Origin: Candidatus Hydrogenedentota bacterium | GTDB lineage: Bacteria > Hydrogenedentota > Hydrogenedentia > Hydrogenedentales > SLHB01 | DNA: 64,000 nt | Reading direction: 5' to 3' | Assembly (NCBI GenBank): GCA_963668025.2 | Contig: CAXXTH010000017.1 | Coordinates: forward strand, 1,472,001-1,536,000 | Part shown: positions 2,131-41,064 of the stretch, in pieces | Layout of the letters: each line of letters begins with the position of its first letter | Position numbering within the stretch: position 1 is the first letter of the stretch | The notes under the pieces: model-generated | What the model was told of the DNA's origin: nothing | Database searches by the model: none | What the model saw: only the letters and a program-made list of their open reading frames with translations | Made by a program: the position numbers and the translations under genes

Positions 2131-3864
2131 CTATGCATGGCGCGGCGGACGGGTGGGCAGGTGGCGATAGGGCTCGGTCTCGGCGATAAGCTCGCCGTAA
2201 TACGCGCCATTGCGGCATCGCAGGCGCACGCGGCGGTGGCAAACCATGCAGGCGATCTCGGCATCCGGTTGAGCCGGTTCGGGAATGAGGATATAGGTGC
2301 TGCAAAACGGGCAGGCGATGCTGTGGCCGTTTTGCTCGAAGTAGTTCTGCCGGATATTGTCGATGGAGCCGCCGCGCAGGCATGCTTCCAGGGCCGCGAT
2401 GCATCCCGGGTCAAATTGCGCGCCGCTCATGTTCCGAATCCGGGCGATGGCCTCCTCCGGATCGAGGCCCTTGCGGTAAGGCCGGTTGCTCGTCATGGCG
2501 TCATATGTGTCCGCCACGGCGATGATCCGGCCTTCCATCGGGATCTCTTCCCCGGCAAGCCCGTATGGATATCCTTGCCCATCCCATCGTTCATGATGGT
2601 ATAAGGCGTATGGAATGAGGGGAACTAGGAAATCCACATCCCTCATAAGGCGCGCACCCCGTTCCGGATGAACCTGCATCATGGCGTATTCTTCCTGGTC
2701 CAAGCCATCGGGTTTGCACAGGATCGAGCCGTCGATAGCGATTTTGCCCACATCATGCAGCACACCGCCCATGCGGCATTCCGCGATCTTGGCCTCATCC
2801 CATCCCATCTCGCGGGCGATAGCCATGGCGAATTGCGCCACCCGCCAGGCATGGCCCACGGTGTAATGATCCCGCATCTCGACGGCGTTCGCGAGCACGA
2901 TCAGGGTGTCTTGATAGCTTTTTTCGACGCGGGCGAGGTATTGGGCGTTTCGTATGGCCGTGGCCGACGCCAGAGACAACGCCACCAGTAATTCGAGGTC
3001 GCTTTCCGTGAATGCCCGGGCGAGGCCGCGCGCATCCACATACAGCGCACCCAGAATCTCGCCCTGATGCTCGAACGGCGCGCACATGGCCGAGGTGATA
3101 TTTTGAACAATAATGCTCCCGCCTTTGCCAAAGCGTGCGTCCGTGGCGGCGTCGTCCGTGATGACCGCTTCGCCCCGCTCGACTACGCGCTGCACAATGG
3201 ATGAACTCACCTTCATTTCATGGTCAGTGGGTTCGGCCCGGATACACACTTTTTCGAGGCGGCCGCTTCCGGGTTCTTTCAATAGAATCGCGCCATTATG
3301 GGCGGGGACCAGCCGGAAAACCTGATCGAGCACCCGCTCGAGCAATTGCTTCAAATCCCGCTCGCTCGATATAATCTGGGCTGATTCGTACACAGCGGCC
3401 AGCCGCCGCTGGGCGTCCCTCAATTGCGCTGCCGTCACATTGTTTCGCTGGCTCGTGTCGAAGAAGGTTTTGTATACGCTCGAGGCGGCCGCCGCACGTA
3501 TGGCATGGCCTTCTTCCGTCTCGAAAACAGCGCCTGACACAGGCGGTGTGGATTCGATATGCGCCGGATGGATGAGTTCAAACCGAATACGCGTATCGCC
3601 AATGGCGATGACATCTCCATCCGCCAGGCGGCTTTCGACTACTTGCCTTCCGCCTACGAAGGTGCCGTTTCCGCTGCCGAGGTCGCGCAAAAAGGTGCCC
3701 GAGGGCGTTTGGCGGATCATGGCGTGGCGGCGCGACACCTGGATATCGTTAAGCTGCACACTATTCTCGCGGCTGCGGCCAATCGTGGCCGCACCCGCCA
3801 GCTCTACGATTTGGCCTTGCTGGCCGCCGGAGAGAATGACAAGGCGTTCTGCTCTCATACGCAT
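2131..3864 (-). CDS. FHA-GAF-HD-GYP c-di-GMP phosphodiesterase with a C-terminal zinc ribbon
   Basis: FHA (IGR..VSRRHA..DLGSGNGT); GAF (SAMCAP..GALYVD); HD-GYP (HDVGK, HHERWDGQGYP); CPFC..CMVC; likely start 3864 (ORF extends to 3963). Confidence 0.9.
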   Translation of the reverse strand: MRMRAERLVILSGGQQGQIVELAGAATIGRSRENSVQLNDIQVSRRHAMIRQTPSGTFLRDLGSGNGTFVGGRQVVESRLADGDVIAIGDTRIRFELIHPAHIESTPPVSGAVFETEEGHAIRAAAASSVYKTFFDTSQRNNVTAAQLRDAQRRLAAVYESAQIISSERDLKQLLERVLDQVFRLVPAHNGAILLKEPGSGRLEKVCIRAEPTDHEMKVSSSIVQRVVERGEAVITDDAATDARFGKGGSIIVQNITSAMCAPFEHQGEILGALYVDARGLARAFTESDLELLVALSLASATAIRNAQYLARVEKSYQDTLIVLANAVEMRDHYTVGHAWRVAQFAMAIAREMGWDEAKIAECRMGGVLHDVGKIAIDGSILCKPDGLDQEEYAMMQVHPERGARLMRDVDFLVPLIPYALYHHERWDGQGYPYGLAGEEIPMEGRIIAVADTYDAMTSNRPYRKGLDPEEAIARIRNMSGAQFDPGCIAALEACLRGGSIDNIRQNYFEQNGHSIACPFCSTYILIPEPAQPDAEIACMVCHRRVRLRCRNGAYYGELIAETEPYRHLPTRPPRHA

Positions 3865-4066
3865 CCCGCTATTGGGACGGACAATGCCGCCGGTTGAATT
3901 CGGGATTTTAAAAGGATCCGCACATTTCACCGTTCCCGATTCCCCGCAATCGTAACACACCACAAGCAGATGCGCAACAGCACGGCATTTTGGAAATGAG
4001 GAAGAGTTGTAATACCATATTTTGTGTCAACAATATCCTCCTACCCCCACAAATTGTAATTTTATC

Positions 4067-4095
4067 TTGACAGCCCACAAGCGGTAGTTTAGAAT
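4067..4095 (+). promoter_or_regulatory. Sigma70-type promoter of the ExeA/secretin/Wzc operon
   Basis: TTGACA-17 bp-TAGAAT. Confidence 0.75.
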
Positions 4096-4200
4096 AGTTC
4101 TACGATTAGCAAGAGTTTAATTAATATCGGTACTCTGATATAGAGTACGCCGCATGCATCAGCCATTTTGGGGGAGGCTTGTGCTTGAGACTCCATCTCG

Positions 4201-5400
4201 ATGGATGGCCGCTTGTTGCGGGATATTCAGGGCATTGAAGAGTGGATTGGCAGCATGAGGCGTTCCCCTTACGAGGCGGACGCAATACATGGATGGACCT
4301 ATTTTGCAAAGGAGGCCCTCGTGGGAGCCACACAGCCGATACCGTGGGAAGAGCGCCATACGCAGGCCAGCGCGAATGAATCCACCGACCTAGTGCTGCG
4401 TTATTTCGGCTTGCAGGAACAGCCTTTCGCCGCGACCGCGGATCCGGCGTACTTTTTTGCCGCGCGCCAGCATAAGGAATGCCTGTTCCGTTTATGGCAC
4501 TCCATTGATGAGCGCCATGGCATCACCGTGGTGTTGGGCAATTACGGCACGGGAAAAACCACCTTATTGCGCAAGCTCCTCACGGGTATGAGCGCCCAGC
4601 CGGAAAAATACAACACGGCGGTCATCGGCTCGCCTATTCCTTCCTGGACCAGTTTCTCGCTTCTTGAGAGCATCGTGAATAAATTCCAGTTACACCCGAA
4701 AGAGCGCTCGTTCGTGGAGTTCATGGAATCTTTAAACCGGTATCTGTTAAGCCGCCGGGACCGCATCACCACCTTAATCATTGATGACGCCCAGAACTTG
4801 AATAAACGCGGGCAGCTTGAATTGCTGCGCTTAGCCCAGAATCTCGAGACGCCCCAGCATAAGCTTCTCAATTTGGTATTTTTTGCGCAGCTCGAATGGA
4901 TGAACATCCTGCGCGCCGCCCCCAATTTCTACCAGCGGGTTAGCTTAACTTACACACTTGACGCATTGAGCCCGGCGGATGTGGCGGAGCTTATTGAGTT
5001 CCGGTTGCGCATGGCTGGCGGCGGCGACCGGGCGCCGCGTTTTGATGAAGGGGCTATTCACGCCATATATGCATATAGCGATGGCAGCCCGCGCGTAGTG
5101 GTCACGATGTGCCGGAATGCCCTGATTCTGGCCGCCCAGTTGCGTACGCGCCTCATTGGGCAAACAGTGATTTTGCACACGATACAGAAGACCACCTTGC
5201 CAGACCAGGAGAAGCAGGAACGAGTGGCTCAAGCTCTCGCGGCGCATCAACAGCCTGTGGCGGCGCCGGTCGCCTTTGAACAAGTTCCAGAACGAGGCGC
5301 GGGAGTAGCAGTTCAATCCAATCGAGCCCGGGCAAGCCGCATGCTGTTGAAAGCCGCCCGGGCAGGCATGGACCAGCATTTGCCAAAGGGAGATCAATGA
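4201..5400 (+). CDS. ExeA/GspA-family AAA+ ATPase
   Basis: YFGLQEQPF..TADP.YFF; Walker A GNYGTGKTT; Walker B IIDDAQNL; S.G.PR motif. Confidence 0.88.
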   Translation: MDGRLLRDIQGIEEWIGSMRRSPYEADAIHGWTYFAKEALVGATQPIPWEERHTQASANESTDLVLRYFGLQEQPFAATADPAYFFAARQHKECLFRLWHSIDERHGITVVLGNYGTGKTTLLRKLLTGMSAQPEKYNTAVIGSPIPSWTSFSLLESIVNKFQLHPKERSFVEFMESLNRYLLSRRDRITTLIIDDAQNLNKRGQLELLRLAQNLETPQHKLLNLVFFAQLEWMNILRAAPNFYQRVSLTYTLDALSPADVAELIEFRLRMAGGGDRAPRFDEGAIHAIYAYSDGSPRVVVTMCRNALILAAQLRTRLIGQTVILHTIQKTTLPDQEKQERVAQALAAHQQPVAAPVAFEQVPERGAGVAVQSNRARASRMLLKAARAGMDQHLPKGDQ

Positions 5401-7076
5401 CGCCGGACGAAACAGAAGATCCCGGCCTTGATGATGGCCTGCTAGAGGAACTGGACGAGATTGACGAGCATTTCGCCGCCAATATCGACGAGGATGAGCG
5501 CATCTCGAGCGGCGTGCCGAAAAGCCAGCGCTCGGGCGATATCGATTTCATCCAAATGACGGGCCTCACCAATCCGGAAACCGCCATGGAAGCGGAATTA
5601 GCGGATATTGACCCCGCAAATCCCCTCAGTTTCTACGAAAGAGGCGTCGCGGATGTGGATGTTTCGATGGCGCCTGGCGTGCTGGGAAACGCCAGTGACG
5701 CTGATGCGGAAATAATCCCCGCACCGTCGCGCCCACCCAAATCGCAGGACATGCGCGCCATGCTCTCCAAAAAACGGGAGATGCAAGAAACGTCCCAACC
5801 GAGTAAAAACGTCGCTTCTAACGAAGTGAAGCCGAATCGTTCGTTCATGCGCCCCGAGGCCGAGAAGCCTCGTCCAGAGCCTCAAGCTCCCGTTTCACCG
5901 CCGCCGGAAGCGGTTGCGCCTCCGGTTGCGAGAGAACCTGTTCCGGAGCGCCCTGCGGCAAGGCCGATGGAAACCGCTGCACAGCGGCGGGCCGAGTATC
6001 CGGCATACCGCCCAGATTATTCCGGTGACGAAGAAAGTTGGAGTCCCAGCGTTTCGGAAGAGCCGGAAAAGAAGCCGGGCTCGAGTTCCCACCACAGGCG
6101 TCGCAGTGGCGGCCGCCAATCACGTAAAATCCGCCGGATTATGATGGCGTTCGCATTGTTGTGTGTGATGCTTGCGGCGCTGTACCTGGCATTCGAGGCG
6201 CTTAAGCTTCATCTTTCATCTCCCGAAGAGCAGTTCCGCGAAGCGGCTCGCGTGGAGGCGCAAGGCGATTATATTGGCGCAGCCCAGCGGTTCAAGAGTT
6301 TTTACGACCGCTTCTCGACGCATCCGCTAAAGGCCGAAGCCTTGTTCCGCGCCGCCTTTTTGTACCAGGCTTCGCCGAAGGAGGGGGGAGCCCAGCCGCA
6401 ACGATATTATGAAGAGTCGAAGATTCTCTTCGATAAATATATACAGGAATTTCCCGCTGCTCCCAATATGCCTCGAGTACGCACGCTCATGGGCATACTC
6501 GATTATCGGCTTGGAATGTATCGGGAAGCTATAGATCAATTAAGCGATCCCAAGCTTCGGAGCGAAGATCCTGGGGCGGATTTAGCTATTTTGCGCGTGC
6601 TTGGGCGGGCATATGCCGCGATTGGGCAATATCTGGAAGCACACAGCAGTTTCTTGCAGGCGGCTTCGACGAATGGAAACTTGGCACCGGATTTGGATTA
6701 CCAAGAACTCGGCAGCATGTATATGGCCATGGCTTCGAATGCGAAATCAGGAAGCGAGGCAAATACATACAAGGAAAAAGCAATCGAATTTCTAAAACGC
6801 GCGGCCGATTGCCCAACGATCACTGCGGCGAATCAGCAAGAGATCAAGGGCAAGCTGGAGCAGATTGAAGGCAAGCCCGAAAAGCCGGATGAAGCGCCCG
6901 TTAGCGCGTCGAATGCGCCCGCCCAAGCGCCGGAGAACGCGAATCCTGCGCCTCCGCCCGTGGATACGAGCATGGAGAGCGGTAAAGCTGCGTCGGCAGT
7001 GGCTGCGGATGCCGCATCCACTGCGCCTAGCGCGCCTCCGGCTGAGGCGGCGCCCGTGAAGCCGCAAACGCCATAA
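5397..7076 (+). CDS. Single-pass membrane protein with an acidic/Pro-rich N-terminus and a periplasmic TPR domain
   Basis: Hydrophobic helix IMMAFALLCVMLAALYLAF; TPR-like repeats (F..FYDRFSTHPLKAEALF; YIQEFPAAP); ATGA overlap with the upstream gene. Confidence 0.75.
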   Translation: MTPDETEDPGLDDGLLEELDEIDEHFAANIDEDERISSGVPKSQRSGDIDFIQMTGLTNPETAMEAELADIDPANPLSFYERGVADVDVSMAPGVLGNASDADAEIIPAPSRPPKSQDMRAMLSKKREMQETSQPSKNVASNEVKPNRSFMRPEAEKPRPEPQAPVSPPPEAVAPPVAREPVPERPAARPMETAAQRRAEYPAYRPDYSGDEESWSPSVSEEPEKKPGSSSHHRRRSGGRQSRKIRRIMMAFALLCVMLAALYLAFEALKLHLSSPEEQFREAARVEAQGDYIGAAQRFKSFYDRFSTHPLKAEALFRAAFLYQASPKEGGAQPQRYYEESKILFDKYIQEFPAAPNMPRVRTLMGILDYRLGMYREAIDQLSDPKLRSEDPGADLAILRVLGRAYAAIGQYLEAHSSFLQAASTNGNLAPDLDYQELGSMYMAMASNAKSGSEANTYKEKAIEFLKRAADCPTITAANQQEIKGKLEQIEGKPEKPDEAPVSASNAPAQAPENANPAPPPVDTSMESGKAASAVAADAASTAPSAPPAEAAPVKPQTP

Positions 7077-7123
7077 CACTACGGCTGGGCTTATCCTGAA
7101 GGGATGGGCACAGGGAGAGGGAA

Positions 7124-8707
7124 ATGATGTCCCGCACGACACGACGGAGAATTTGGAAGCCTATGGGGCCGATGCAGCGTTTTGCAGCAGTGGTTGTGGG
7201 CTGCCTATTATCGCTTGGGGTATTTGCACAAGAGCAAACAGTCCGGCCTCAAGATTCAACGGCCAGGGAAAATGTCATCGCGCCGCGCGAGGAAGCGCCC
7301 GTAGCGAAAACGACACTCAATGCCGGAGATTTGGTGTTTGTGGACATCGCACGGCACCCGGAATTGTCCACCAGCACGCAGATCGATACGGGCGGAAGCA
7401 TTGTGCTGCCCCATGTGGGCCCGGTAAAAATCGGGGGCATGTCGGAGACGGAGGCGCAAGATGCCATCGCAACGTCGCTGCTGCGCATTTTGCGCCAGAA
7501 GCCGCAAGTGATGCTTTCCCGCAACGCCCCGGCGGTAACCGCCAATAATTTCCGCACTTCCGAGATGACGACCGAATTAATCCCGCTGCAGAACGCCAAT
7601 GCGGAAAATCTCGCCAATGCGCTCCAAGGCATGACCAGCGCGGGCGGCAATATCAGTTATGATCCCGATACGTATACGCTCATTATTACAGATACGCCGG
7701 AGACCGTGCGCAATATCATGAGTGTTGTCAATCGCCTTGACAATATGAAGAGCCTTGTCACGCAAGTGCGGATCGAGGCCAAGATTGCCGAAGTGAAAGT
7801 AAACGCCATGAAAGAACTGGGCGTTAAGTGGTTTGCTCAAGGCGATGAAGCCGGGGGCGGGTATTATCCCACGGGCGTGCAAGGCACCGGCTTGCAAAAT
7901 TTGCTCGGTACCGCGTCCGATGCGAACGCCAACGAGCAAGTCAATTTGGGCGGTGGCGGGACAGGCGGCGGCCGTTCATATGTCGAAGAAGGGCTGTTTG
8001 ACCGGCGCGTAGTGCTGCCGGTAAATGTAGGCCAGCCAGGCCAGTTTTTCTTTGGGCTTTTGAATTCGGATATCGATCTGGGCATATTGCTGAATGCGCT
8101 TGTGGCGAATGATGAAGCGGAAATCCTGGCGAATCCGAGTATTTTGGCGGTGAATCACACCAAGGCGCAAATCCGCAGCACCGAACGCTTTCCGTTCACC
8201 GAATATGGCGTGTCGGATGGGCGCGACACGTTCGGCACCAGTTTCCTCGATCTCGGGATCAAGCTGATGGTGACGCCCCATGTGCGCACCGATGATAAAG
8301 GCATTTATGTGAACCTCGAACTCGAACCCGAGGTGTCGTATCCTACGGGCAACGCCGAAGGCGTGCCCACCTATTCCGTGCGTAGTTCAAAAAACATCGC
8401 GAATGTGCGTGACAGTCAAACGCTTGTTATTGGGGGTATTTACCGCAACCAGCAGCGCAATGTGGACTCTGGTTTGCCTGGACTGCGCAAGGCTCCGATA
8501 ATCGGCCATCTGTTCTCTCATGTCGAAAAAGAGCAAAATCAGACGGAGTTGATGGTTTTCGTTACGCCGACGGTGCATGACAGCCCGGAGACGGTCACCT
8601 GGGATCGAATGTTGGATATACAAAGCGCAAGCAATGCGCCTAGCGCGAGCAGTGTGCTGAAACCGGTTCCCACTCGAGCCGTTTTACCCGAGACTCGCAA
8701 GGAGTAA
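7124..8707 (+). CDS. Poly_export (Wza/OPX) domain fused to a secretin (N-domain + secretin core)
   Basis: Signal peptide; LNAGDLVFVDI..HPELS..IDTGGSIVLPHVGPVKIGGMS (PES-like); Secretin_N ELIPLQNANA..LIITDT; QVRIEAKIAEV..ELGVKW; GIKLMVTPHV; TLVIGGI..LPGL..PIIGHLFS..TELMVFVTPTV. Confidence 0.85.
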   Translation: MMSRTTRRRIWKPMGPMQRFAAVVVGCLLSLGVFAQEQTVRPQDSTARENVIAPREEAPVAKTTLNAGDLVFVDIARHPELSTSTQIDTGGSIVLPHVGPVKIGGMSETEAQDAIATSLLRILRQKPQVMLSRNAPAVTANNFRTSEMTTELIPLQNANAENLANALQGMTSAGGNISYDPDTYTLIITDTPETVRNIMSVVNRLDNMKSLVTQVRIEAKIAEVKVNAMKELGVKWFAQGDEAGGGYYPTGVQGTGLQNLLGTASDANANEQVNLGGGGTGGGRSYVEEGLFDRRVVLPVNVGQPGQFFFGLLNSDIDLGILLNALVANDEAEILANPSILAVNHTKAQIRSTERFPFTEYGVSDGRDTFGTSFLDLGIKLMVTPHVRTDDKGIYVNLELEPEVSYPTGNAEGVPTYSVRSSKNIANVRDSQTLVIGGIYRNQQRNVDSGLPGLRKAPIIGHLFSHVEKEQNQTELMVFVTPTVHDSPETVTWDRMLDIQSASNAPSASSVLKPVPTRAVLPETRKE

Positions 8708-8715
8708 GTGCTTCG

Positions 8716-10986
8716 ATGGCCAATGATATGACAGGGCTGGAAAAAGCTGCCTCCCAGGGCCGCGAAAATCAATTGCGGTTTCTGGTTAATGTGGTGGCGC
8801 GCCATTGGAAGCTAATAGCCGCCTCGGTTCCCGTGGCGGTTCTGGGCTATTTCTGTTTTGTCCAAGGCTACGCGCTGTTTTTCCAGCCTCCAGCGCCTGA
8901 GGTGCAATGGCGCGCCCAGACCCAGTTGGTGGTCCAGCAAGCGGAGTGGGAAAAAGAGATCTTCCGCAGCCTGGCGGGCACGCCGCTGTTCCGGGGAACG
9001 CCCACGGCGCTGGCGGGGCGCATTAGCGCGCGCGATTTGGCCGCCGATGCGGTGCATGCCATGGTTCAGGACGATCTTCTGAATGGCGGGCTGATGGGCG
9101 GCATTTTTACAGAAGAAAGCGTCGAAGCAGCCATCCAGCCTATCTCTTCTGGGTTGGAAGTCGTGCCCGAGGATGAAACGGGCGTCATCGGCGTGCTTGG
9201 AGCCGCATCGGGCCGGGAAGAAGCCCGGCGCATTGTCGATTATGCCGGGCGCAGTTTCATCGAGCGGAATCAGCGTTTTCTTTCCAATGAAGAGCAAGAA
9301 GCGCTGGACTTCGTCCATACGCAATTAAAAGAAGTAGGCCAGCGCCTGGACCAAGCCGAGAGTGATGTCTGGCAGTTCAAAAAAGAGATGGGTTTCACGA
9401 CGGGCGAACAGTATGAAACCGATTTGTCAGCGCTCTACGATGAGCTGCGCATGAACGAAGCGTCGCGCTCGGGCCTTAATGATAAGCTGCAAGAGATTGC
9501 GAATGAATTGAAGTTAAATAATGAAAAACTCCCCGAGGCCTTGGGGCAAATCAACGATGCCGTCATTACCGGTCTTCTCAATCAACTGAACACGCAGCTT
9601 CAAGAGCAGTTCACGCTGAGCGTGACATATACCCCCGAGTTTGACGATCTGAAAAACCTGCAAGCTGATATCGAGGACACGCAACGCGCTATTCTCGAGG
9701 CGGTGCGCAAGCTGGACGGAGAAGCCGATAATGGCCAATTGGTGTGGGATCGCCGCCAGTTTCTGCATTCGCAATACCGGCAATGCCAGATAGACCTTAC
9801 TTCGCTAGAGATTCGTGCGTCTACAGTGGAAACGCGCCTCGATGATATGATGAAACAATGGCCCGTACTCAGCGAAAAGCGCAAGCAGTTCGAGAGCCTA
9901 CAGCGCGCCAGTGCGCAATTCCAGAAGCAATTTGATTTGCTTGTGGATAAGAAAACAGAACTCGAGGATGCCATCCGCCGCGGTGCGGCTCCCGTCAAGC
10001 GCGGAGAGTACGTCACTGATCTAGGGATGACCAAAGGCCGGGAGTCACAGCATGGCTGGCTGGATTATTTCATAGCCGCTGTCATCGGTTTGCTGGCTGG
10101 TTTAGCGATTTCCGTTGCTTGGGAATTGAATGATACATCGATTCGAAGTGTCGAGGATGTGACGGAATATATCGGCCTTGATGTGATCGGCATGATCCCG
10201 CGCATGCAATTTGGCCGCACCTTGCGGCGGCCACGCAATCGTGGCAATTATGTGGCCATCAAAGAGGAAAGTGAAGTTGACGCCTGTATTGTGACCCAGC
10301 ATGATCCGAAATCGCCCATTTCCGAGGCTTATAGGACGCTGCGGACCAATTTCCAGTTTGCCACCATCCAACAGAAACCGAAAACTATCCTGGTGACCAG
10401 CGCCGTGCCGGGCGAAGGCAAAACCACTACCGCCGTAAATATGGCCGTCACATTCGCGGATAGCGGATTTAAAGTTCTTCTGGTGGATACCGACTTGCGC
10501 CGCCCTCATGTGCATCATGTGCTCAAAATGCAGCGCGGGCCAGGCCTTGCCGATGTGCTCCGCCAGGGCCTTGATTATCATCCTCTCGTGCGGCAGACGC
10601 GCATCAAAAACCTCTGGTCTATATCGAGCGGCCATGTGCCGCCCAATCCATCAGAGTTGATAGGTTCGGAGCGGATGCGAAATGTTATGCAGAGCATGGC
10701 CAGCCATTTCGATTTGGTCATCTGTGATGCGCCTTCGGTGCTGGTCGTGACCGACCCCGTGCTTCTGGCCACCAATGTGGATGCGGTGGTAATCGTGGCT
10801 TCCGCCACCTACGCACGCCGTGAAACGGTCTTGCGCGCCAAACGCCTGATGGAAACGGCGAAAGCCCATATTGCGGGCGTTGTGTTGAACGGCATCGACG
10901 CCACCCGCCGCCATTATTATTACTACTATTATTATTACGATGAAAGCGCCTCTGGCCACCACCGGAAACGCTGGTTCAACAGTTAA
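8716..10986 (+). CDS. wzc: Polysaccharide co-polymerase / BY tyrosine kinase (Wzc-like)
   Basis: Two TM helices flanking a coiled coil; SEAYRTLRTN; Walker A GEGKTT; DTDLRRP; C-terminal YYYYYYYY cluster. Confidence 0.9.
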   Translation: MANDMTGLEKAASQGRENQLRFLVNVVARHWKLIAASVPVAVLGYFCFVQGYALFFQPPAPEVQWRAQTQLVVQQAEWEKEIFRSLAGTPLFRGTPTALAGRISARDLAADAVHAMVQDDLLNGGLMGGIFTEESVEAAIQPISSGLEVVPEDETGVIGVLGAASGREEARRIVDYAGRSFIERNQRFLSNEEQEALDFVHTQLKEVGQRLDQAESDVWQFKKEMGFTTGEQYETDLSALYDELRMNEASRSGLNDKLQEIANELKLNNEKLPEALGQINDAVITGLLNQLNTQLQEQFTLSVTYTPEFDDLKNLQADIEDTQRAILEAVRKLDGEADNGQLVWDRRQFLHSQYRQCQIDLTSLEIRASTVETRLDDMMKQWPVLSEKRKQFESLQRASAQFQKQFDLLVDKKTELEDAIRRGAAPVKRGEYVTDLGMTKGRESQHGWLDYFIAAVIGLLAGLAISVAWELNDTSIRSVEDVTEYIGLDVIGMIPRMQFGRTLRRPRNRGNYVAIKEESEVDACIVTQHDPKSPISEAYRTLRTNFQFATIQQKPKTILVTSAVPGEGKTTTAVNMAVTFADSGFKVLLVDTDLRRPHVHHVLKMQRGPGLADVLRQGLDYHPLVRQTRIKNLWSISSGHVPPNPSELIGSERMRNVMQSMASHFDLVICDAPSVLVVTDPVLLATNVDAVVIVASATYARRETVLRAKRLMETAKAHIAGVVLNGIDATRRHYYYYYYYYDESASGHHRKRWFNS

Positions 10987-11045
10987 GCCAAGCCGGGCGC
11001 TAGCATTTCGCTTCCCCCAAAATAGCTTTTCGGGAGCTGTCGGCG

Positions 11046-12578
11046 GTGTTTTTTAATACCAACAAAGAATACCAGATCGGCCGCGGTGAAGTCGCGGAAA
11101 GCCGGGTGGAAGCGCCGTTCTTTGTTGCGCTAATGCTGGTTTGCGGGCTGCTGCTCATCTGCGCCCATCTGTATTGGCGGAATCCAGAAGTAACGCTGGC
11201 TCTTAGTTTTACTATGACGGTATTTGCCATCACTGCGCTTCGTGTTAGTTTCGGCGTCTATGTGCTGGTGTTAGGCATGCTGCTTTCGCCGGAGATAACG
11301 GCAGGTGCAGTGGGCTCCAAAGACCACGCTCTAAACATGCGCTATAACGATGTCCTTATTCTGGCCATTTTCATGGGCGTATTCGTCCATGTGGCTTGGA
11401 AAGGGCGCATGCGTTTTTGGATTCCCAGTCCCATTAATTCAGGCATTCTCGTATATTTCGGCATATGTATTCTCTCAACCTTGCTCGCTTTACGGCGAGG
11501 CTTGCCCTATTTCGATGAGATAACCGCGTTTTTCGTTCTAGTAAAAATGGTCGAGTATTACTTGATATTTTTCCTTGTGGGCAACGCGGTATCGAGTAAA
11601 GCAACCATGCGAAGGCTGTTGATTCTCTTTTTCATGACGGCGCTCTTCGTGGCGATTTATGGAATCGGACAAGTAGGCAAAACAGACCGCGTGGGAACGC
11701 CTTTCGAGTCAGAAGGCGCCGAGCCTAATACGCTTGGAGGATATCTCATGCTTGTGATGATCCTATCGTTGTCTTTATACCGGTATGCGCCTAGCCGCTC
11801 AAAAAAGGCCTTATTCCTATTGCTTTTCGCTATTGTTTTTGCACCTTTTCTCTTCACGCTTTCACGGGCTTCCTATCTTGCTTTAGTGGCCGCCATGATA
11901 GCCATGGGCATAAAAAGCCGGTCCTATTTGGTGCTTTCGATTGTGGGTATTGGCTTGTTGATATCTCCTTTTGTAATGCCTTCCGCCGTACAAGACCGAG
12001 TCAATTATACTTTTCAAAAAGGCGCTGGTGAGGAAGTCACGGTCGCGGGAAAAGACACCGGGATACAAGTCGATAAATCCACGTATGAGCGTATTTATGT
12101 ATGGAAAAAAGTTGGATATAACCTCCGTTATTTGCCGTGGTATGGCGGCGGCGTTTCGTGGGACACGGTCATGGACAGCCAATATGCCCGTGTGCTCATT
12201 GAAACGGGCCTATTTGGATTTGCTGCCTTTCTATTCATGCAATTCCGCATTCTGCGGACAACGCACCAAACGTATAAGTGGGCGGACGACTGGGTAGGCC
12301 GAAGCCTGGGACTTGCCACATTCTCTTTCACGATTGGCCTTATTGTCCACAGTTTTGGAACCATCTCTTTCCTCATTGTACGGATCATGGAGCCCTATTG
12401 GTTCCTGGTGGCGATGGCGGTCGTGGTGCGGGATAGGGCGATTCGGGACTATGTGCGGTCTAAGATGCGCCAGCGGAGTGAGGCCCCAAAAACGGCGGCC
12501 CAGCCATCCCCCCTCCCGCAGCCGGTTTTCCAGCCGGCACCGGTGCTCAGTCTTCGCAACCCAGATTATGTGGAATAA
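11046..12578 (+). CDS. O-antigen ligase / Wzy-family polysaccharide polymerase
   Basis: Many TM segments; EPNTLGGYL, TLSRASY and DSQYARVLIETGLFG motifs. Confidence 0.8.
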   Translation: MFFNTNKEYQIGRGEVAESRVEAPFFVALMLVCGLLLICAHLYWRNPEVTLALSFTMTVFAITALRVSFGVYVLVLGMLLSPEITAGAVGSKDHALNMRYNDVLILAIFMGVFVHVAWKGRMRFWIPSPINSGILVYFGICILSTLLALRRGLPYFDEITAFFVLVKMVEYYLIFFLVGNAVSSKATMRRLLILFFMTALFVAIYGIGQVGKTDRVGTPFESEGAEPNTLGGYLMLVMILSLSLYRYAPSRSKKALFLLLFAIVFAPFLFTLSRASYLALVAAMIAMGIKSRSYLVLSIVGIGLLISPFVMPSAVQDRVNYTFQKGAGEEVTVAGKDTGIQVDKSTYERIYVWKKVGYNLRYLPWYGGGVSWDTVMDSQYARVLIETGLFGFAAFLFMQFRILRTTHQTYKWADDWVGRSLGLATFSFTIGLIVHSFGTISFLIVRIMEPYWFLVAMAVVVRDRAIRDYVRSKMRQRSEAPKTAAQPSPLPQPVFQPAPVLSLRNPDYVE

Positions 12579-12645: not shown

Positions 12646-12738
12646 TGGCGGAGAGAGAGGGGTTCGAACCCTCGGAACACCTTATGAGCGTTCACACGCT
12701 TTCCAAGCGTGCGCCTTCAACCACTCGGCCATCTCTCC
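12646..12738 (-). tRNA. tRNA-Ser (anticodon GGA)
   Basis: Reverse complement reads GGAGAGATGGCCGAGTGGTTGAAGGCGCACGCTTGGAAAGCGTG...GGTTCGAACCCCTCTCTCTCCGCCA; long variable arm; encoded CCA. Confidence 0.97.
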
Positions 12739-20912: not shown

Positions 20913-22700
20913 CGAAAGGTTCTGCTTCCATACACCATGTGATATGCGAATGTGGCGCGAAAAGCATGAAAGGGGATGAACCATGAACGTACAAGTTTTC
21001 TCCTTGACCGTTGCTGTTTGCCTAAGCCTTTTGATTACTCCTCCGTGCGCGGGCTCAGGGCAGGTTTCCACCACTGTCCCAGATGCCGCTGTCATCGCCT
21101 CTAATGCGTTCGCGATGGATCTGTACGCCGCCTTGCGCAAGCAGGAAGGCAACTTGTTCTTCTCGCCCGCCAACATCGCCTGCACACTGGCCATGGCGGA
21201 AGCGGGCGCACGCGGCAAAACGGCCCAAGAGATCCGGGATGTGCTCCACATGCCCGATGACTCGTTGGCCATGCACAAGGCCTTCGGCGCATTGGGCAAA
21301 AGCGCGCCGGGCGGAATCCTTCTCTACTCCGCCAACGCGATATGGTCGCCCGAGCCCATCCAACTGCTCGAACCCTTCCAAACCATCATGGAACGGGCCT
21401 ATGGCGTCAACAGCGTCATGACGCCAAATCCCGGGGATTCAAGGGAATATCATATCCAGATCAATGAGTGGATCGCGAAAGAAACGAACAACCGGATCAC
21501 AGAAGCGATCCGGTTCGAGGATTTGCCCCCGGGAGGGCTTAGCCTATCGCTGGTGAGCGCTTCCTATATGAATGGGCAATGGCGCGCCCAGTTTCCACGA
21601 CAGCGAACAGAAACCGCGCCGTTCACTACGGCCAGTGGTGAAACAGTCGAAGTTCCCACGATGCATATGGATGATTTCCTTGAATATGGGGAGAAAGAAA
21701 ACTGCCAAGTGCTGGAAATGAGCTATCAAAATAGCGTAATGGCCATGATTCTCGTGCTACCCAAAGAGCCTGATGGCCTGCCCGCTTTAGAAAAAGAACT
21801 CACCCAAATCGAAGTGAACGCCTGGCTGCCCAAAATGCAGCCCGTTATGGCCATCGTCAGTTTGCCCCGGTTTCGTTTTACGTCCGATCTGCATCTCGGC
21901 AATGTGCTGGGAAAAATGGGCATGCCCACCGCTTTCAGCGACAAAGCGGACTTTAAAAATATGATGTCTATTGATGGATTGCAGTTAAAACTGGCCAAGC
22001 ATTGCTCGTGGGTGGATGTAAACGAAGAGGGTACGGAAGCCGCCTCCGCTACCGTTATGGGGATAGGCATGCCTGGAATGGTTGATGAGTCCGTCGACTT
22101 TATCGCCGACCATCCCTTCCTATTTTTTATCCAGGACAGAAAGAGCGGTTTGATTCACTATGTAGGGCGCGTTCTGGATCCATTGCAGAAATAAATGATA
22201 ACGAAAGGTTCTGCTTCCATACACCATGTGATATGCGAATGTGGCGCGAAAAGCATGAAAGGGGATGAACCATGAACGTACAAGTTTTCTCCTTGACCGT
22301 TGCTGTTTGCCTAAGCCTTTTGATTGCTCCTCCGTGCGCGGGCTCAGGGCAGATTTCCACCACTGTCCCAGATGCCGCTGTCATCGCCTCCAATGCGTTC
22401 GCGATGGATCTGTACGCCGCCTTGCGCAAGCAGGAAGGCAACCTGTTCTTCTCGCCCGCCAACATCGCCTGCACACTGGCCATGGCGGAAGCGGGCGCAC
22501 GCGGCCAGACCGCCCAAGAGATCCGGGACGTGCTCCACATGCGCAAAGGCTCGCTGGCCATGCACAAGGCCTTCGGCGCATTGGGCAAAAGCGCGCCGGG
22601 TGGAGTCCTTCTCTATTCCGCCAACTCGATATGGGCGCCCAAGCCCATCCAGCTTCTCGAACCCTTTCAAACCATCATGGAACGGGCGTATGGCATCAGC
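20913..22700 (+). repeat. ~500-bp near-identical direct repeat covering the upstream region and 5' third of serpins 1 and 2 (about 20913-21410 vs 22202-22700)
   Basis: CGAAAGGTTCTGCTTCCATACACCATGTGATATGCGAATGTGG...ATGAACGTACAAG is repeated at an offset of 1289. Confidence 0.9.
20983..22194 (+). CDS. Secreted serpin 1
   Basis: NLFFSP; hinge EEGTEAASAT; FIADHPFLF signature; signal peptide. Confidence 0.95.
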   Translation: MNVQVFSLTVAVCLSLLITPPCAGSGQVSTTVPDAAVIASNAFAMDLYAALRKQEGNLFFSPANIACTLAMAEAGARGKTAQEIRDVLHMPDDSLAMHKAFGALGKSAPGGILLYSANAIWSPEPIQLLEPFQTIMERAYGVNSVMTPNPGDSREYHIQINEWIAKETNNRITEAIRFEDLPPGGLSLSLVSASYMNGQWRAQFPRQRTETAPFTTASGETVEVPTMHMDDFLEYGEKENCQVLEMSYQNSVMAMILVLPKEPDGLPALEKELTQIEVNAWLPKMQPVMAIVSLPRFRFTSDLHLGNVLGKMGMPTAFSDKADFKNMMSIDGLQLKLAKHCSWVDVNEEGTEAASATVMGIGMPGMVDESVDFIADHPFLFFIQDRKSGLIHYVGRVLDPLQK

Positions 22701-23480
22701 AGCATCATGATGCCTAATCCAAACGATTCGCGAGATATTTATGGCCAAATCAATGCATGGATAGCGCAACAAACGAACAACCGGATTGAATCCACGATTC
22801 TTCGTAGCGACATTCCTAGCGTTCCTCTAAATATGTTTCTCGTGAGCGCTTCTTATATGAAAGGAACATGGCACACTCCGTTTCCCCGCGAGCGCACCCA
22901 ACCAGGCGCTTTCACCATGGCCAGCGGGAATATAATCCAAGTACCCACCATGCATCTAGATTGTCGGCTTGGGTATGCTAAAAAAGACGGCTGCCAGATT
23001 CTTAGTTTGCCTTACAGTAAAAGTACATTATCTATGATAATCGTACTCCCAAATGACCCGGACGGGCTTCCCGCCTTGGAAAAAGAGATCTCGCAAAGTG
23101 ATATAAAAAAATGGATGCCCTGGCTTGATACCGCTAAAGCAAAGGTAAGCCTGCCACGGTTTTGTTTGGCGTCAAATTTTGAACTTAAAAAAACGCTGAG
23201 CGATATGGGCATGCCTCTGGCTTTTTGTGCTTCAGCGGATTTTGGAAACATTACCGCTGATTGCCCATGGTGGATCATGCTTGCAAAGCACTGCGCCTGG
23301 GTGGACGTAAACGAGGAGGGCACGGAAGCCGCCTCAGCAACTGTTTTGGGTTATGGAATGGGTCCGGTGCCGGAGGAGGTCGATTTCATCGCTGATCACC
23401 CCTTTCTGCTTCTCATCCGTGACCGTGACACGGGCCTGATCCATTATATCGGGCGCGTTCTGGATCCTACTCAGAATTAG
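22272..23480 (+). CDS. Secreted serpin 2
   Basis: Serpin motifs; RCL EEGTEAASATVLGYGMGP. Confidence 0.95.
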   Translation: MNVQVFSLTVAVCLSLLIAPPCAGSGQISTTVPDAAVIASNAFAMDLYAALRKQEGNLFFSPANIACTLAMAEAGARGQTAQEIRDVLHMRKGSLAMHKAFGALGKSAPGGVLLYSANSIWAPKPIQLLEPFQTIMERAYGISSIMMPNPNDSRDIYGQINAWIAQQTNNRIESTILRSDIPSVPLNMFLVSASYMKGTWHTPFPRERTQPGAFTMASGNIIQVPTMHLDCRLGYAKKDGCQILSLPYSKSTLSMIIVLPNDPDGLPALEKEISQSDIKKWMPWLDTAKAKVSLPRFCLASNFELKKTLSDMGMPLAFCASADFGNITADCPWWIMLAKHCAWVDVNEEGTEAASATVLGYGMGPVPEEVDFIADHPFLLLIRDRDTGLIHYIGRVLDPTQN

Positions 23481-23511
23481 GCAGTACAACGTTTTATAGG
23501 AGGAACCAACG

Positions 23512-24723: not shown

Positions 24724-24936
24724 TGGCGGCGGCGCTCGCCGGGGAAGAGCACGGCGGAAAAAGCAATGTACTATTACTATGCCATTCCCGCGAAAGCGGG
24801 AATGACGGTGGGGTGAGTTATGCGCAAGTGTCAACGACGATGCCGTGGAACCGTTTCCGGATGCGGGACGTCGTTGGGCGCGTTGAGAAGCCTTTTGAGA
24901 ACCAGAACGTGTTAGTATGATGAGGAGGAGTCGGCC

Positions 24937-26163: not shown

Positions 26164-26184
26164 TGGCGTCGGAATGCGCGAAAG

Positions 26185-26298
26185 AGGACAAGAAAGCGGT
26201 AGCAAGCTACCGCACTCCATACATGCTCTAAGTATTTCTTATGAAAGTATTTGGAGTGCGGCAGCTTGCTGCCGCTTTGGGCGTGCGGATTTCATTTG
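26185..26298. repeat. REPIN-like inverted doublet, copy 2
   Basis: Matches 12834-12946. Confidence 0.75.
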
Positions 26299-26513
26299 GA
26301 TGCGCTCTTGCGATTCCATAGCGATATCCGACTCGCCGGGTAAAGGCACGACGAAAGAAGCAATGTACTACCATGGCGCCGTTCCCTTTCGCGGTGAAGG
26401 CGTTTGGGTGAGTATTGCGAAAATGTCAACGAAGCGAGTATGGAAGCCGTTTTCCGTGGGTGGGACGCCATTAGGCGCTCAGAGCGTTTTAATACGATTA
26501 GGAGGAGCCAAAC

Positions 26514-32311: not shown

Positions 32312-32485
32312 GTCCGCCACCGCCTTTCCTGGATTTGAACCTATACACTCGATGAGGCGCTCAAGTCGCAAATTCTACCAAAGATATATCAAAATGGCCA
32401 ACAAACCTAGAATTCATGTATGTGGCCGTAGCATGGGCGTCCCGCCCATGCCACAAATCGCCACATGCCATTGCTATAGCCGTTT

Positions 32486-40968: not shown

Positions 40969-41064
40969 GTAGGTGCAGCATTGTCCATATTCATGTTTGT
41001 ATGTATACGTTTTTGCATGCTTTCATTGCGAGGACTGTTTTCAACTCAAAGTGAGGAAATTGAT

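What the first reader, a model, noticed from the sequence alone, without database searches (positions are those of the whole stretch)
4067..12578. Candidate secretin-based polysaccharide export system: a Wza-domain::secretin fusion in an operon with Wzc, a Wzy-like polymerase, an ExeA ATPase and a TPR protein
Seen: five co-oriented, closely spaced genes follow a consensus promoter. The gene at 7124-8707 joins an N-terminal Poly_export (PES-like) domain to a Secretin_N domain and a full secretin core, and sits 8 bp before wzc. Known: Wzy-dependent export uses OPX/Wza, whose Poly_export ring faces Wzc. The outer membrane is crossed either by Wza's own alpha-helical barrel or, for short OPX proteins, by a separate beta-barrel partner. 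Secretins normally serve T2SS, T3SS, T4P and filamentous phage, and ExeA/GspA assists secretin assembly. Inference: here a secretin barrel replaces the Wza pore and docks on Wzc through the fused domain, giving a third type of polysaccharide translocon. I am not aware of a description of this architecture. The operon has no pilin, GspE or other T2SS genes.
Basis: partly seen in the sequence, partly recalled or inferred. Interest (0 to 1): 0.92.

Follow-up and report, generated by a model that had tools for sequence, protein, structure and literature searches.

The report
Secretin fused to polysaccharide-export docking domain
A conserved five-gene operon in Hydrogenedentota bacteria encodes an outer-membrane secretin whose usual docking end is replaced by the domain that capsule exporters use to dock on Wzc. 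This suggests an undescribed route for getting polysaccharide out of the cell.

Summary
ORF 7124-8707 (527 aa) carries Poly_export (res 61-130), Secretin_N (150-207) and a full Secretin domain (325-484), all above Pfam cut-offs. An AlphaFold model matches GspD/PilQ secretins, and its N-terminal domain matches M. xanthus WzaB and E. coli Wza D1.

The order ATPase - bitopic TPR protein - fusion - Wzc - Wzy-like is kept in 46 related loci wherever the contig allows: Wzc 45/46, TPR 41/41, Wzy 37/37, ATPase 33/33. Across 135 genomes of the phylum, 65 have both the fusion and its Wzc, one has only the fusion and one only a distant Wzc-like gene. The genome's two ordinary OPX genes lie elsewhere; one has its own Wzc.

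Wza D1 is the domain that contacts Wzc in the 2026 cryo-EM structure. I read the module as a secretin-based polysaccharide translocon docked on Wzc, confidence about 0.6. Nothing functional was tested.

Corrections: the ATPase lacks ExeA's peptidoglycan-binding domain; the "Wzy" could be a ligase; a GspE-like gene lies nearby in 14 loci but occurs independently of the module. No description was found in six literature searches.

The parts
2131..3963 (-). Divergent regulator gene: FHA - GAF - HD (HD_5/HD-GYP-type) protein, 610 aa.
   Evidence: Pfam HD_5 132.6 bits, FHA 65.9, GAF_2 48. A homologue lies upstream and divergent in 21 of 46 related loci by tblastn. A stricter script count gave 17 of 29 loci with at least 6.5 kb of upstream sequence.
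4067..4095 (+). Sigma-70-like promoter match, TTGACA-17-TAGAAT.
   Evidence: 11 of 12 positions match. This is a consensus match only. No Rfam element was found in 3900-4300.
4201..5400 (+). Soluble GspA/MshM-type AAA ATPase, 399 aa.
   Evidence: AAA_22 62.7 bits. Best NCBIfam match is TIGR03015 pepcterm_ATPase at 150 bits, below the 324.5 cut-off. No TM segment. Present upstream in 33 of 33 loci with room.
5397..7076 (+). Bitopic inner-membrane protein, 559 aa: acidic cytoplasmic N-terminus, one TM at res 248-266, periplasmic TPR-like domain.
   Evidence: Hydropathy scan. Weak TPR_12, YbgF and BamD-like hits at res 269-422. Conserved N-terminal motifs in alignment A4. Its start overlaps the ATPase stop by 4 nt. 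Present in 41 of 41 loci with room.
7124..8707 (+). Poly_export::Secretin_N::Secretin fusion protein, 527 aa, with a signal-peptide-like hydrophobic stretch at res 17-35.
7304..7513 (+). Poly_export (PES, Wza-D1-like) domain, res 61-130.
   Evidence: PF02563 at 52.9 bits. pLDDT 83-95 in the model. Foldseek 9n9a rmsd 1.2 A and 2j58 rmsd 1.6 A. Aligned to WzaB and Wza.
7571..7744 (+). Single N3-type Secretin_N domain, res 150-207. There is no N0/STN domain before it.
   Evidence: PF03958 at 53.1 bits. The ordinary secretins checked carry STN/N0 in this position.
8096..8575 (+). Secretin beta-barrel core, res 325-484.
   Evidence: PF00263 at 129.7 bits, full length. Profile hits to GspD and PilQ cryo-EM structures, E 4.6e-52 and below. 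Foldseek 5zdh E 9.9e-17.
8576..8704 (+). Family-specific C-terminal tail with the conserved motif P-E-T-V-T-W-D-R-M and a charged end. Its role is unknown.
   Evidence: Alignment A1 conservation. A short helix is predicted at res 488-495.
8716..10986 (+). Wzc-type PCP-2a tyrosine autokinase, 756 aa: TM at 33-51 and 451-469, periplasmic domain between them, C-terminal kinase and Tyr-rich tail.
   Evidence: TIGR01007 at 194 bits. Hydropathy. Tyr-rich tail in the consensus of A2. Profile hits to E. coli Wzc 7nhr/9r62 and to PslE.
11046..12578 (+). WaaL/Wzy-superfamily polytopic membrane protein, 510 aa.
   Evidence: Wzy_C at 26.7 bits, below the 31.7 cut-off. TIGR03097 E 5.6e-8. About 11 hydrophobic segments. 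AlphaFold model pLDDT 82. Top fold hit is WaaL 7tpg, E 1.4e-6, TMt 0.66.
12649..12738 (-). Convergent tRNA gene that marks the 3' boundary of the operon.
   Evidence: Rfam RF00005 at 58.9 bits. A promoter-like site for it lies at 12779-12750.

Best explanation
The operon encodes the export half of a Wzx/Wzy-type polysaccharide pathway in which a secretin is the outer-membrane channel.

Proposed mechanism. The fusion protein is exported to the periplasm and multimerises into a secretin barrel in the outer membrane. Below the barrel sit a ring of N3 domains and, below that, a ring of Wza-D1-like Poly_export domains. In ordinary secretins the N0/STN domain occupies that lowest position and docks on the T2SS/T4P inner-membrane platform. 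Here the D1-like ring docks on the periplasmic helical arm of the adjacent Wzc octamer, as Wza D1 does in E. coli. Polymer made at the inner membrane by the WaaL/Wzy-superfamily protein, from lipid-linked repeat units supplied by unlinked glycosyltransferase, PGT and Wzx genes, then passes through Wzc and the secretin to the surface.

The soluble AAA ATPase and its translationally coupled bitopic TPR partner form a GspA/GspB-like (MshM/MshN-like) unit. This unit assembles, anchors or gates the secretin. The divergent FHA-GAF-HD(HD-GYP-type) protein probably regulates the operon.

What is shown: the domain composition, the folds, the conserved gene order and the phyletic co-occurrence.

What is inferred: multimerisation, docking on Wzc, polysaccharide as the cargo, and the role of the ATPase/TPR pair.
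For: Domains and folds. Poly_export, Secretin_N and Secretin are all above cut-off. The N-terminal domain superposes on the class-3 OPX WzaB (9n9a, rmsd 1.2 A over 70 columns, 31% identity) and on Wza D1 (rmsd 1.6 A over 84 columns).

Conserved gene order in 46 loci at 42-57% identity: Wzc 45/46, TPR 41/41, Wzy-like 37/37, ATPase 33/33 where the contig has room.

Phyletic coupling over 135 genomes of the phylum: 65 have both fusion and Wzc orthologue, 1 only the fusion (G060, 88% complete, 840 contigs), 1 only a 36%-identical Wzc-like gene (G130), and 68 have neither.

The Wzc is a complete BY-kinase PCP-2a with a Tyr-rich tail and matches solved Wzc and PslE structures.

Published structure: the Wzc helical-arm forearm contacts the Wza D1 domain, D1 deletion abolishes co-localisation, and interface mutations abolish capsule production (PMC12881504, passages).

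The fusion lacks an N0/STN domain, which the ordinary secretins checked do have.

Homologues of the ATPase lie just upstream of ordinary secretins in 13 of 114 other loci, none of which has Wzc, Wzy or PES. In the one such locus examined (L097) the unit sits in a pseudopilin/PilMNO cluster. The ATPase-partner-secretin unit is therefore a secretin-side module that has here been joined to Wzc-Wzy.

The genome's other two OPX genes are elsewhere, and one has its own Wzc in an exosortase locus.

The genome has the upstream pathway parts unlinked: 3 Bac_transf, about 6 Wzx-like and 1 LMW phosphatase gene.

Precedent that secretins can be needed for export of non-protein slime: PMC12475490 (abstract).
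Against: No functional, expression or interaction data exist.

No glycosyltransferase, Wzx or PGT gene is conserved beside the module, so the cargo is not identified.

The fusion has no SLBB domain, which published work treats as part of every OPX protein.

The two loop insertions of E. coli Wza D1 seen in the alignment are absent here, so the Wzc contact cannot be copied residue for residue.

Solved secretins are 12-15-mers, while Wza and Wzc are octamers (chain counts). Docking would need a symmetry mismatch or an unusual secretin stoichiometry.

The Wzy-like protein's nearest solved fold is the ligase WaaL, and its Pfam Wzy_C score is below cut-off.

A GspE/PilB-like ATPase gene lies next to the module in 14 of 46 loci.

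The whole-protein AlphaFold model is only moderate (pLDDT 70, pTM 0.45), with res 233-316 unmodelled.
Confidence: 0.6

Rival explanations
1. The channel exports glycosylated protein or lipid-linked glycan rather than a free polysaccharide. The module is a derived relative of the XrtA/PEP-CTERM-type gene set. In this reading the Wzy-like protein is an O-glycosylation or WaaL-type ligase, and the secretin exports or displays the modified product. Wzc acts as regulator and scaffold.
For: The best, sub-threshold NCBIfam matches of four of the five proteins are to PEP-CTERM-locus families: TIGR03015 ATPase, TIGR03028/TIGR03027 export, TIGR03018/TIGR03007 kinase and chain-length, and TIGR03097 'putative O-glycosylation ligase'. 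The top fold hit of the Wzy-like protein is the ligase WaaL. Secretins normally pass proteins.
Against: All these NCBIfam scores are far below cut-off (for example 150 against 324.5). The genome's exosortase gene sits in a different locus with its own OPX and Wzc. No PEP-CTERM or other cargo gene is conserved beside the module. WaaL, Wzy and SEDS proteins share one fold, so the fold hit does not separate ligase from polymerase.
Confidence: 0.17
2. The protein is an ordinary protein- or pilus-secreting secretin of a minimal T2SS/T4P-like system. In this reading the Poly_export domain is only a structural periplasmic ring that replaced N0. Linkage to Wzc/Wzy reflects co-regulation, for example matrix proteins secreted together with EPS, rather than a shared conduit.
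For: The ATPase-partner-secretin unit is found in a T2SS-type cluster elsewhere. A GspE/PilB-like ATPase gene is convergent to Wzy in 14 of 46 loci. The genome has several other secretins and T2SS-type genes.
Against: No pilin, GspF or PilMNO gene occurs in the module in the window, and none appears among the ORF families shared by the 46 loci. The GspE-like gene is present in 125 of 135 genomes, including families with 0/23 and 0/10 modules, and in this genome it lies about 800 kb away beside an SLT-LysM gene. It therefore does not depend on the module. The fused domain is exactly the one that contacts Wzc, and Wzc adjacency is invariant.
Confidence: 0.1
3. The fusion anchors Wzc to the outer membrane, or acts as a regulated plug, while the polymer leaves through another route such as one of the two ordinary OPX proteins.
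For: The genome has two further OPX proteins with SLBB domains. The one on contig C23 has no adjacent PCP.
Against: Keeping a full secretin core in 119 of the 120 best listed homologues is hard to explain for a mere anchor. The C10 OPX has its own Wzc.
Confidence: 0.06

Closest known systems
Wza (class 1 OPX) with Wzc, E. coli group 1 capsule / colanic acid translocon
   Same: It has an N-terminal Poly_export (D1) domain of the same fold. The gene lies directly beside a full Wzc BY-kinase. D1 is the Wzc-contacting domain (PMC12881504).
   Different: It has no SLBB (D2/D3) domains and no Wza_C alpha-helical barrel. There is no conserved lipobox cysteine in alignment A1. The outer-membrane part is a secretin beta-barrel. 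Two D1 loop insertions of Wza are absent.
Class 3 OPX plus separate beta-barrel porin (M. xanthus WzaX/S/B with WzpX/S/B; Saidi et al. 2022 preprint)
   Same: The Poly_export domain is closest to WzaB (9n9a, 31% identity, rmsd 1.2 A). The principle is the same: an OPX periplasmic module is combined with a beta-barrel that crosses the outer membrane.
   Different: The barrel here is a multimeric secretin, not an 18-stranded PgaA-like monomeric porin. It is fused to the OPX module in one polypeptide. There is no SLBB domain.
GspD/PilQ secretins with GspA-GspB (ExeA-ExeB) or MshM-MshN accessory pairs
   Same: It has a full secretin core and an N3 domain. Upstream lie an AAA_22 ATPase and a bitopic partner, as in the T2SS-type locus L097.
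   Different: It has no N0/STN domain and only one Secretin_N domain. No pilins, GspE/F or PilMNO are in the operon. The ATPase has no TM segment and no PG_binding_1 domain, unlike the genome's true ExeA-type paralogue.
PilQ/GspD 'slime nozzles' of cyanobacteria and M. xanthus (Zuckerman et al. 2025, PMC12475490)
   Same: It is a secretin implicated in export of a non-protein exopolymer (abstract).
   Different: Those are ordinary T4P/T2SS secretins with no OPX domain, and no link to a PCP is described in the passages I read. Here the link to Wzc is built into the protein and the operon.
XrtA/PEP-CTERM-associated EPS export gene set (TIGR03015, 03027, 03007/03018, 03097)
   Same: The cast is the same: a GspA-like ATPase, a short OPX, a chain-length/tyrosine-kinase protein and an O-antigen-ligase-like protein. 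These families are the best NCBIfam matches for the ATPase and the Wzy-like protein and lower-ranked matches for the fusion's N-terminal domain and Wzc.
   Different: All scores are well below cut-off. The exosortase is not in this locus. A secretin takes the place of any separate barrel.

Membership tests
OPX proteins, classes 1-3 (as defined in Saidi et al. 2022 preprint) | N-terminal Poly_export (PES) domain | tested here: met
   PF02563 at 52.9 bits against a cut-off of 28. Profile and fold matches to WzaB and Wza D1.
OPX proteins, classes 1-3 | At least one SLBB domain after Poly_export | tested here: not met
   No SLBB or SLBB_2 hit at E <= 0.01. The genome's two other OPX proteins do hit SLBB and SLBB_2. 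The next domain here is Secretin_N.
OPX proteins, classes 1-3 | C-terminal Wza_C helix (class 1) or GfcC module (class 2) | tested here: not met
   Neither family was reported by hmmscan. The C-terminus is a secretin core.
OPX proteins, classes 1-3 | Genomic and functional pairing with a PCP (Wzc) | tested here: met
   Genomic pairing only: 45 of 46 loci have Wzc adjacent, and 65 genomes carry both genes. Functional pairing was not tested.
Secretin superfamily (GspD/PilQ/InvG/pIV) | Full C-terminal secretin domain preceded by an N3-type domain | tested here: met
   PF00263 covers positions 1-167 of 169 at 129.7 bits; PF03958 at 53.1 bits. Hits to 15-mer GspD structures, E 4.6e-52. Foldseek E 1e-16.
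Secretin superfamily (GspD/PilQ/InvG/pIV) | N0/STN (or AMIN) N-terminal domains that couple to the T2SS/T4P/T3SS inner-membrane platform | tested here: not met
   None detected. Most of the ordinary secretins checked have STN, N0 or AMIN domains; two of those (P0141, P0154) showed only Secretin_N and Secretin.
Secretin superfamily (GspD/PilQ/InvG/pIV) | Heat/SDS-resistant 12-15-mer in the outer membrane | not testable with these tools
T2SS / T4P gene cluster | Pilins or pseudopilins, GspE/PilB, GspF/PilC and an alignment complex in the same cluster | tested here: not met
   None in the operon. None is conserved in the 46 loci except a convergent T2SSE gene in 14, and that gene occurs independently of the module.
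GspA/ExeA | AAA_22 P-loop domain plus TM segment plus periplasmic PG_binding_1 domain | tested here: not met
   Only AAA_22 is present, with no TM segment. The paralogue at G000:C14:127259-129595 has AAA_22 plus PG_binding_1.
XrtA/PEP-CTERM-associated ATPase (TIGR03015) | Score above the curated cut-off and location in an exosortase locus | tested here: not met
   150 bits against a cut-off of 324.5. The exosortase gene is on contig C10.
PCP-2a / Wzc BY-kinase | Two TM segments around a large periplasmic domain, a C-terminal Walker-type kinase and a Tyr-rich tail | tested here: met
   TIGR01007 at 194 bits against 108. TM at 33-51 and 451-469. Invariant G-K-T and a Y-run in A2. Matches to 7nhr, 9r62 and PslE.
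Wzy O-antigen/EPS polymerase | Wzy_C family membership and polymerase (not ligase) activity | tested here: inconclusive
   Wzy_C at 26.7 bits against a cut-off of 31.7. The fold is of the WaaL/SEDS type. Activity cannot be told from sequence.

The most novel reading that the evidence does not exclude
This is a fourth architectural class of polysaccharide translocon. A gated secretin channel is plugged directly onto the Wzc octamer through a Wza-D1-like ring. A cytoplasmic AAA ATPase assembles or opens it through a bitopic TPR protein.

As a 'Rosetta stone' fusion, it also predicts that stand-alone secretins partner with SLBB-type class 3 OPX proteins in other bacteria. That would help explain two published observations. 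Only 77 of 2017 class 3 OPX genes lie near a known porin. [quoted passage not shown]
Probability: 0.35. Interest if true: 0.88.

Novelty: new variant of a known kind. Interest (0 to 1): 0.78.

Why it matters
How long sugar polymers cross the outer membrane is settled only for Wza-type alpha-helical pores and a few beta-barrel porins. Most OPX proteins lack any membrane-spanning part, and most have no known partner.

This protein physically joins the Wzc-docking domain of OPX proteins to a secretin. It is conserved with Wzc across about half of a phylum. That gives direct genomic evidence that a secretin can serve the Wzx/Wzy pathway, and it makes the idea testable with one protein and one partner.

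It also shows how a secretin can be re-targeted from a protein-secretion platform to a different inner-membrane machine by swapping its N-terminal domain. Finally, it gives a genetic handle on the recently reported need for secretins in slime secretion.

Tried and rejected
Complex prediction. Complex prediction for Wzc res 52-450 with fusion res 60-215 was not available, so nothing was folded and docking remains unmodelled.

Context of the second clade with the same architecture (P0132, P0134, P0272-P0276; one named Ca. Ancaeobacter aquaticus, phylum Ca. Auribacterota). The metagenome scan with alignment A3 returned only ordinary secretins, with matches covering res 129-520 at most. Whether those genes also sit beside a Wzc is therefore unknown.

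Expression. The look-up of sequencing runs listed 5 holders and no RNA holder.

c-di-GMP or other riboswitch upstream of the operon: no Rfam match in 3900-4300 at E <= 1.

Dependence on the neighbouring GspE-like ATPase: rejected. That gene is in 125 of 135 genomes, including families without the module.

A biosynthetic cluster beside the module: none is conserved. A Wzx-PGT pair on contig C14, 20 kb from a true ExeA paralogue, was looked at but nothing ties it to this operon.

Single origin of the fusion. On a tree of the N3 + secretin part only (58 rows: 24 fusion proteins and 34 ordinary secretins, chosen by me), the fusion proteins group together with one ordinary secretin inside the group (SH-aLRT 88, not starred). 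An AU test does not reject a single clade (p 0.614). One origin is therefore allowed but not shown.

Literature. No description of a Poly_export-secretin protein was found with these term sets: secretin + Poly_export (3 papers, none describing it); OPX + secretin + polysaccharide export + Wzc; Hydrogenedentes + secretin; secretin/polysaccharide/Wzc/GspA/ExeA; PF02563 + PF00263 (0 papers); Hydrogenedentota/exopolysaccharide/Wzc. TIGR03015 alone gave 0 papers. Subscription journals are not covered, and supplementary tables, including the OPX survey tables of the Saidi preprint, could not be seen and may list such proteins.

Full report
1. What is there

The + strand carries five closely spaced ORFs: 4201-5400, 5397-7076 (overlapping the first by 4 nt), 7124-8707, 8716-10986 (8 nt after the previous stop) and 11046-12578. 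A promoter-like match, TTGACA-17-TAGAAT (11 of 12), lies at 4067-4095. A convergent tRNA gene at 12649-12738 closes the unit.

Pfam on the central 527-aa protein gives three domains, all above cut-off:
- Poly_export, res 61-130, 52.9 bits.
- Secretin_N, res 150-207, 53.1 bits.
- A full-length Secretin domain, res 325-484, 129.7 bits.
No SLBB, Wza_C, STN or N0 domain is reported.

The neighbours are as follows.
- A soluble AAA_22 ATPase. Its best NCBIfam match is the PEP-CTERM-locus ATPase TIGR03015, at 150 bits against a cut-off of 324.5.
- A 559-aa protein with an acidic cytoplasmic N-terminus, one TM segment at res 248-266 and a weakly TPR/YbgF/BamD-like periplasmic part.
- A complete Wzc-type tyrosine autokinase co-polymerase: TIGR01007 at 194 bits, two TM segments and a Tyr-rich tail. 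Its profile matches solved Wzc and PslE structures.
- A polytopic WaaL/Wzy-superfamily protein. Wzy_C scores 26.7 bits, below cut-off, and the best fold match of a pLDDT-82 model is the ligase WaaL, followed by FtsW and RodA.
- Divergently upstream, an FHA-GAF-HD(HD_5) protein.

2. Structure of the fusion

An AlphaFold2 model built on 32 homologues has mean pLDDT 70. The Poly_export domain scores 83-95, the N3 domain 72-93 and the barrel strands 73-90. Res 233-316 are unmodelled.

Foldseek against the PDB puts GspD, PilQ and InvG secretins first (E about 1e-16 to 1e-13). For the N-terminal domain it finds the class-3 OPX WzaB of M. xanthus (9n9a, rmsd 1.2 A over 70 columns, 31% identity) and Wza (2j58, rmsd 1.6 A over 84 columns). 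A profile search of PDB sequences gives the same two sets.

The residue alignment shows that the G-D-x-V-x-V...h-P-E-L signature is kept. Two loop insertions of E. coli Wza are absent, as they are in WzaB.

3. It is a family with a fixed neighbourhood

In one search, 324 proteins passed E <= 0.001 among the 8000 candidates scored. Of the best 120 listed, 119 have the same three precomputed Pfam domains. The names that sources give them point to Candidatus Hydrogenedentota.

A profile scan of species-representative genomes returned 46 loci at 42-57% identity that cover about res 56-527. Below these there is a sharp drop to ordinary secretins at about 29% identity that match only res 140-484.

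In the 46 loci the order ATPase - TPR - fusion - Wzc - Wzy-like is kept wherever the contig allows:
- Wzc follows the fusion in 45 of 46 loci. The exception, L047, ends 20 nt after the match. The distance between the aligned segments is -9 to 141 nt. My script's stricter window scored 41 of 44 because three values were -9.
- The TPR gene precedes the fusion in 41 of 41 loci.
- The ATPase is present in 33 of 33 loci.
- The Wzy-like gene is present in 37 of 37 loci.
- The divergent HD-type regulator is present in 21 of 46 loci by tblastn (17 of 29 by the stricter script).

Clustering of all ORFs in these loci found no other widely shared family. In particular, there is no glycosyltransferase, Wzx, pilin or GspF.

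4. Phyletic pattern

Among 135 genomes of the phylum, the fusion is found in 66 (45 of 86 high-quality genomes). It is single-copy and absent from whole families (0/23 and 0/10). The orthologue of its Wzc is also found in 66 genomes.

By comparing the two lists, 65 genomes have both genes. One has only the fusion (G060, 88% complete, 840 contigs). One has only a 36%-identical Wzc-like gene (G130). The remaining 68 have neither.

5. The rest of the genome

The genome has six other secretin genes, reported as seven Secretin matches. It has two ordinary OPX genes.

One OPX (Poly_export + 2 SLBB, 422 aa) sits with a second Wzc-like gene, a sigma-54 activator, a WecG transferase, two TPR proteins, an exosortase and a Wzm/Wzt-like ABC transporter on contig C10. 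The other (three Poly_export stretches + SLBB) lies near a GT4 and a sugar dehydratase gene on C23. So no ordinary OPX is positioned to serve the Wzc of this operon.

Three Bac_transf genes, about six Wzx-like genes and one low-molecular-weight phosphatase gene exist elsewhere.

The only paralogue of the ATPase is a 778-aa protein with AAA_22 and PG_binding_1, which is a true ExeA/GspA type. The operon's ATPase lacks that periplasmic part.

6. Where the ATPase-TPR pair comes from

I held 114 loci around ordinary secretins from other phyla and from metagenomes. Thirteen of them have a homologue of the ATPase (31-38% identity) just upstream of the secretin. None has a Wzc, Wzy-like or PES match.

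In the one locus I annotated (L097), the unit is AAA_22 ATPase - small GspB-like protein (weak T2SSB hit) - secretin with STN. It sits behind pseudopilin J/K and PilM/N/O genes.

The simplest reading is that a GspA-GspB-GspD-like unit was detached from its pilus machinery. Its secretin then lost N0/STN and gained an OPX D1 domain, and the unit was joined to Wzc and a Wzy-like gene.

7. The one piece of evidence for a T2SS link

A GspE/PilB-like ATPase gene lies downstream of the Wzy-like gene in 14 of the 46 loci. In 13 it is directly after Wzy and convergent.

In this genome its 59%-identical orthologue is about 800 kb away, beside an SLT-LysM gene and a PD40 gene and without any GspF or pilin. 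It is present in 125 of 135 genomes, including the families that have no module at all (21/23 and 10/10). It is therefore a core gene of the phylum whose adjacency is local gene order. The reverse dependence, that the module needs it, cannot be excluded.

8. Mechanism

[quoted passage not shown] It also reports that deleting D1 abolishes co-localisation and that interface mutations abolish capsule production (PMC12881504, passages).

D1 is the Poly_export domain, and that is precisely what this secretin carries in place of N0/STN. I therefore take the protein to be a secretin channel docked on Wzc. The ATPase/TPR pair would act in assembly or gating, and the HD-type protein in regulation. This reading has about 0.6 confidence.

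Open problems are these:
- Stoichiometry: solved secretins are 12-15-mers, while Wza and Wzc are octamers.
- The missing SLBB domains.
- The unidentified cargo.
- The polymerase-or-ligase question.

The rivals, with my rough confidences, are: a glycoconjugate or PEP-CTERM-like system (0.17), a protein or pilus secretin that is merely co-regulated with EPS genes (0.10), and an anchor or plug role (0.06).

9. Comparison with what is known

By the published definition, OPX proteins have Poly_export followed by at least one SLBB domain. They fall into class 1 (Wza_C), class 2 (GfcC) or class 3 (neither, some paired with an 18-stranded porin) (Saidi et al. preprint, passages). The fusion fails the SLBB criterion and fits none of the three classes.

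It is a secretin by its core, but it lacks the platform-docking domains and the gene context of T2SS/T4P.

Secretins have recently been reported as necessary for slime secretion in cyanobacteria and M. xanthus (PMC12475490, abstract and passages). In the passages I read there is no described link to OPX or PCP proteins.

Six literature searches found no description of this architecture. Databases only annotate it automatically, as 'polysaccharide biosynthesis/export family protein' or as GspD/PilQ.

10. Spread beyond the phylum

Seven further cluster representatives at 30-38% identity have the same three domains. One is named for Ca. Ancaeobacter aquaticus, of Ca. Auribacterota in the PVC group. 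P0130 falls inside the Hydrogenedentota clade on the tree.

The Atlas holds one large cluster with this architecture: 57 members, with Hydrogenedentota the commonest phylum (queried through homologue P0009).

On a tree of the N3 + secretin part alone, all fusion proteins fall in one region. An AU test does not reject a single clade (p 0.614). I could not obtain the gene context of the Auribacterota clade.

11. Verdict

The function is untested. The finding is a new variant built from two known kinds of machine, and no description of it was found in the searched literature. Interest 0.78.

Noticed in passing
window 20983-27737 (+): Five tandem serpin genes of 402-408 aa each, with full-length PF00079 hits (E 1e-90 to 1e-120). 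That is an unusual number of tandem copies for a bacterium.
   Followed up: no
window 50416-60189: Three transposase genes lie at 50416-52242 (DDE_Tnp_1), 52918-54372 (IS66) and 54530-56089 (DDE). Next to them is a low-GC island (GC 0.37 at 56000-60000, against about 0.55-0.6 around it). Two of its ORFs were scanned (56986-58176 and 59062-60189) and gave no Pfam hit.
   Followed up: no
window 31277-32371 (-): A lone T2SSF (GspF/PilC-type) gene lies next to a PPIase gene (30742-31287), about 19 kb from the operon. No other T2SS gene was seen beside it.
   Followed up: partly
G000:C17:672207-673736 (L096 8207-9736, -): A solitary GspE/PilB-like ATPase, present in 125 of 135 genomes of the phylum. 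Here it lies beside an 855-aa SLT + 6x LysM lytic transglycosylase and a PD40 protein. In 14 relatives it lies convergent to the module's Wzy-like gene. Its function is unknown.
   Followed up: partly
G000:C10:1320422-1335330 (L013): A separate exosortase (EpsH) locus. It holds a sigma-54 activator, an OPX (Poly_export + 2 SLBB), a second Wzc-like PCP, a WecG transferase, two large TPR proteins and Wzm/Wzt-like ABC transporter genes.
   Followed up: partly
G000:C23:296338-297723 (L014 8338-9723): An OPX protein with three Poly_export-matching stretches plus one SLBB domain and no adjacent PCP. It lies near a GT4 and a GDP-mannose-dehydratase-family gene.
   Followed up: no
window 8576-8704 (fusion res 485-527): A family-specific tail after the secretin core, with the near-invariant motif T-W-D-R-M and a terminal E-x-R-R/K-E/D. 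It may be a binding site for the TPR protein or another partner, comparable to a secretin S-domain.
   Followed up: no
window 5397-5660 (TPR protein res 33-88): The otherwise poorly conserved cytoplasmic N-terminus of the TPR protein has two conserved short motifs, around D33-R35-G39-F51-M54-G56 and F79-E81-G83-V84-D86-V87-D88. These are candidate contact points for the ATPase.
   Followed up: no
L051; L020, L028, L029, L033, L039, L044, L055, L059: Several contigs carrying the module are titled Bathyarchaeia archaeon (L051) or Nitrospiraceae/Nitrospirales, although the module is otherwise confined to Hydrogenedentota records. These are probably binning or labelling errors in the source records.
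   Followed up: no
window 40981-42477 (+): A 498-aa protein with a full PRiA4_ORF3 (plasmid pRiA4b ORF-3-like) domain, next to a 538-aa ORF with no Pfam hit.
   Followed up: no
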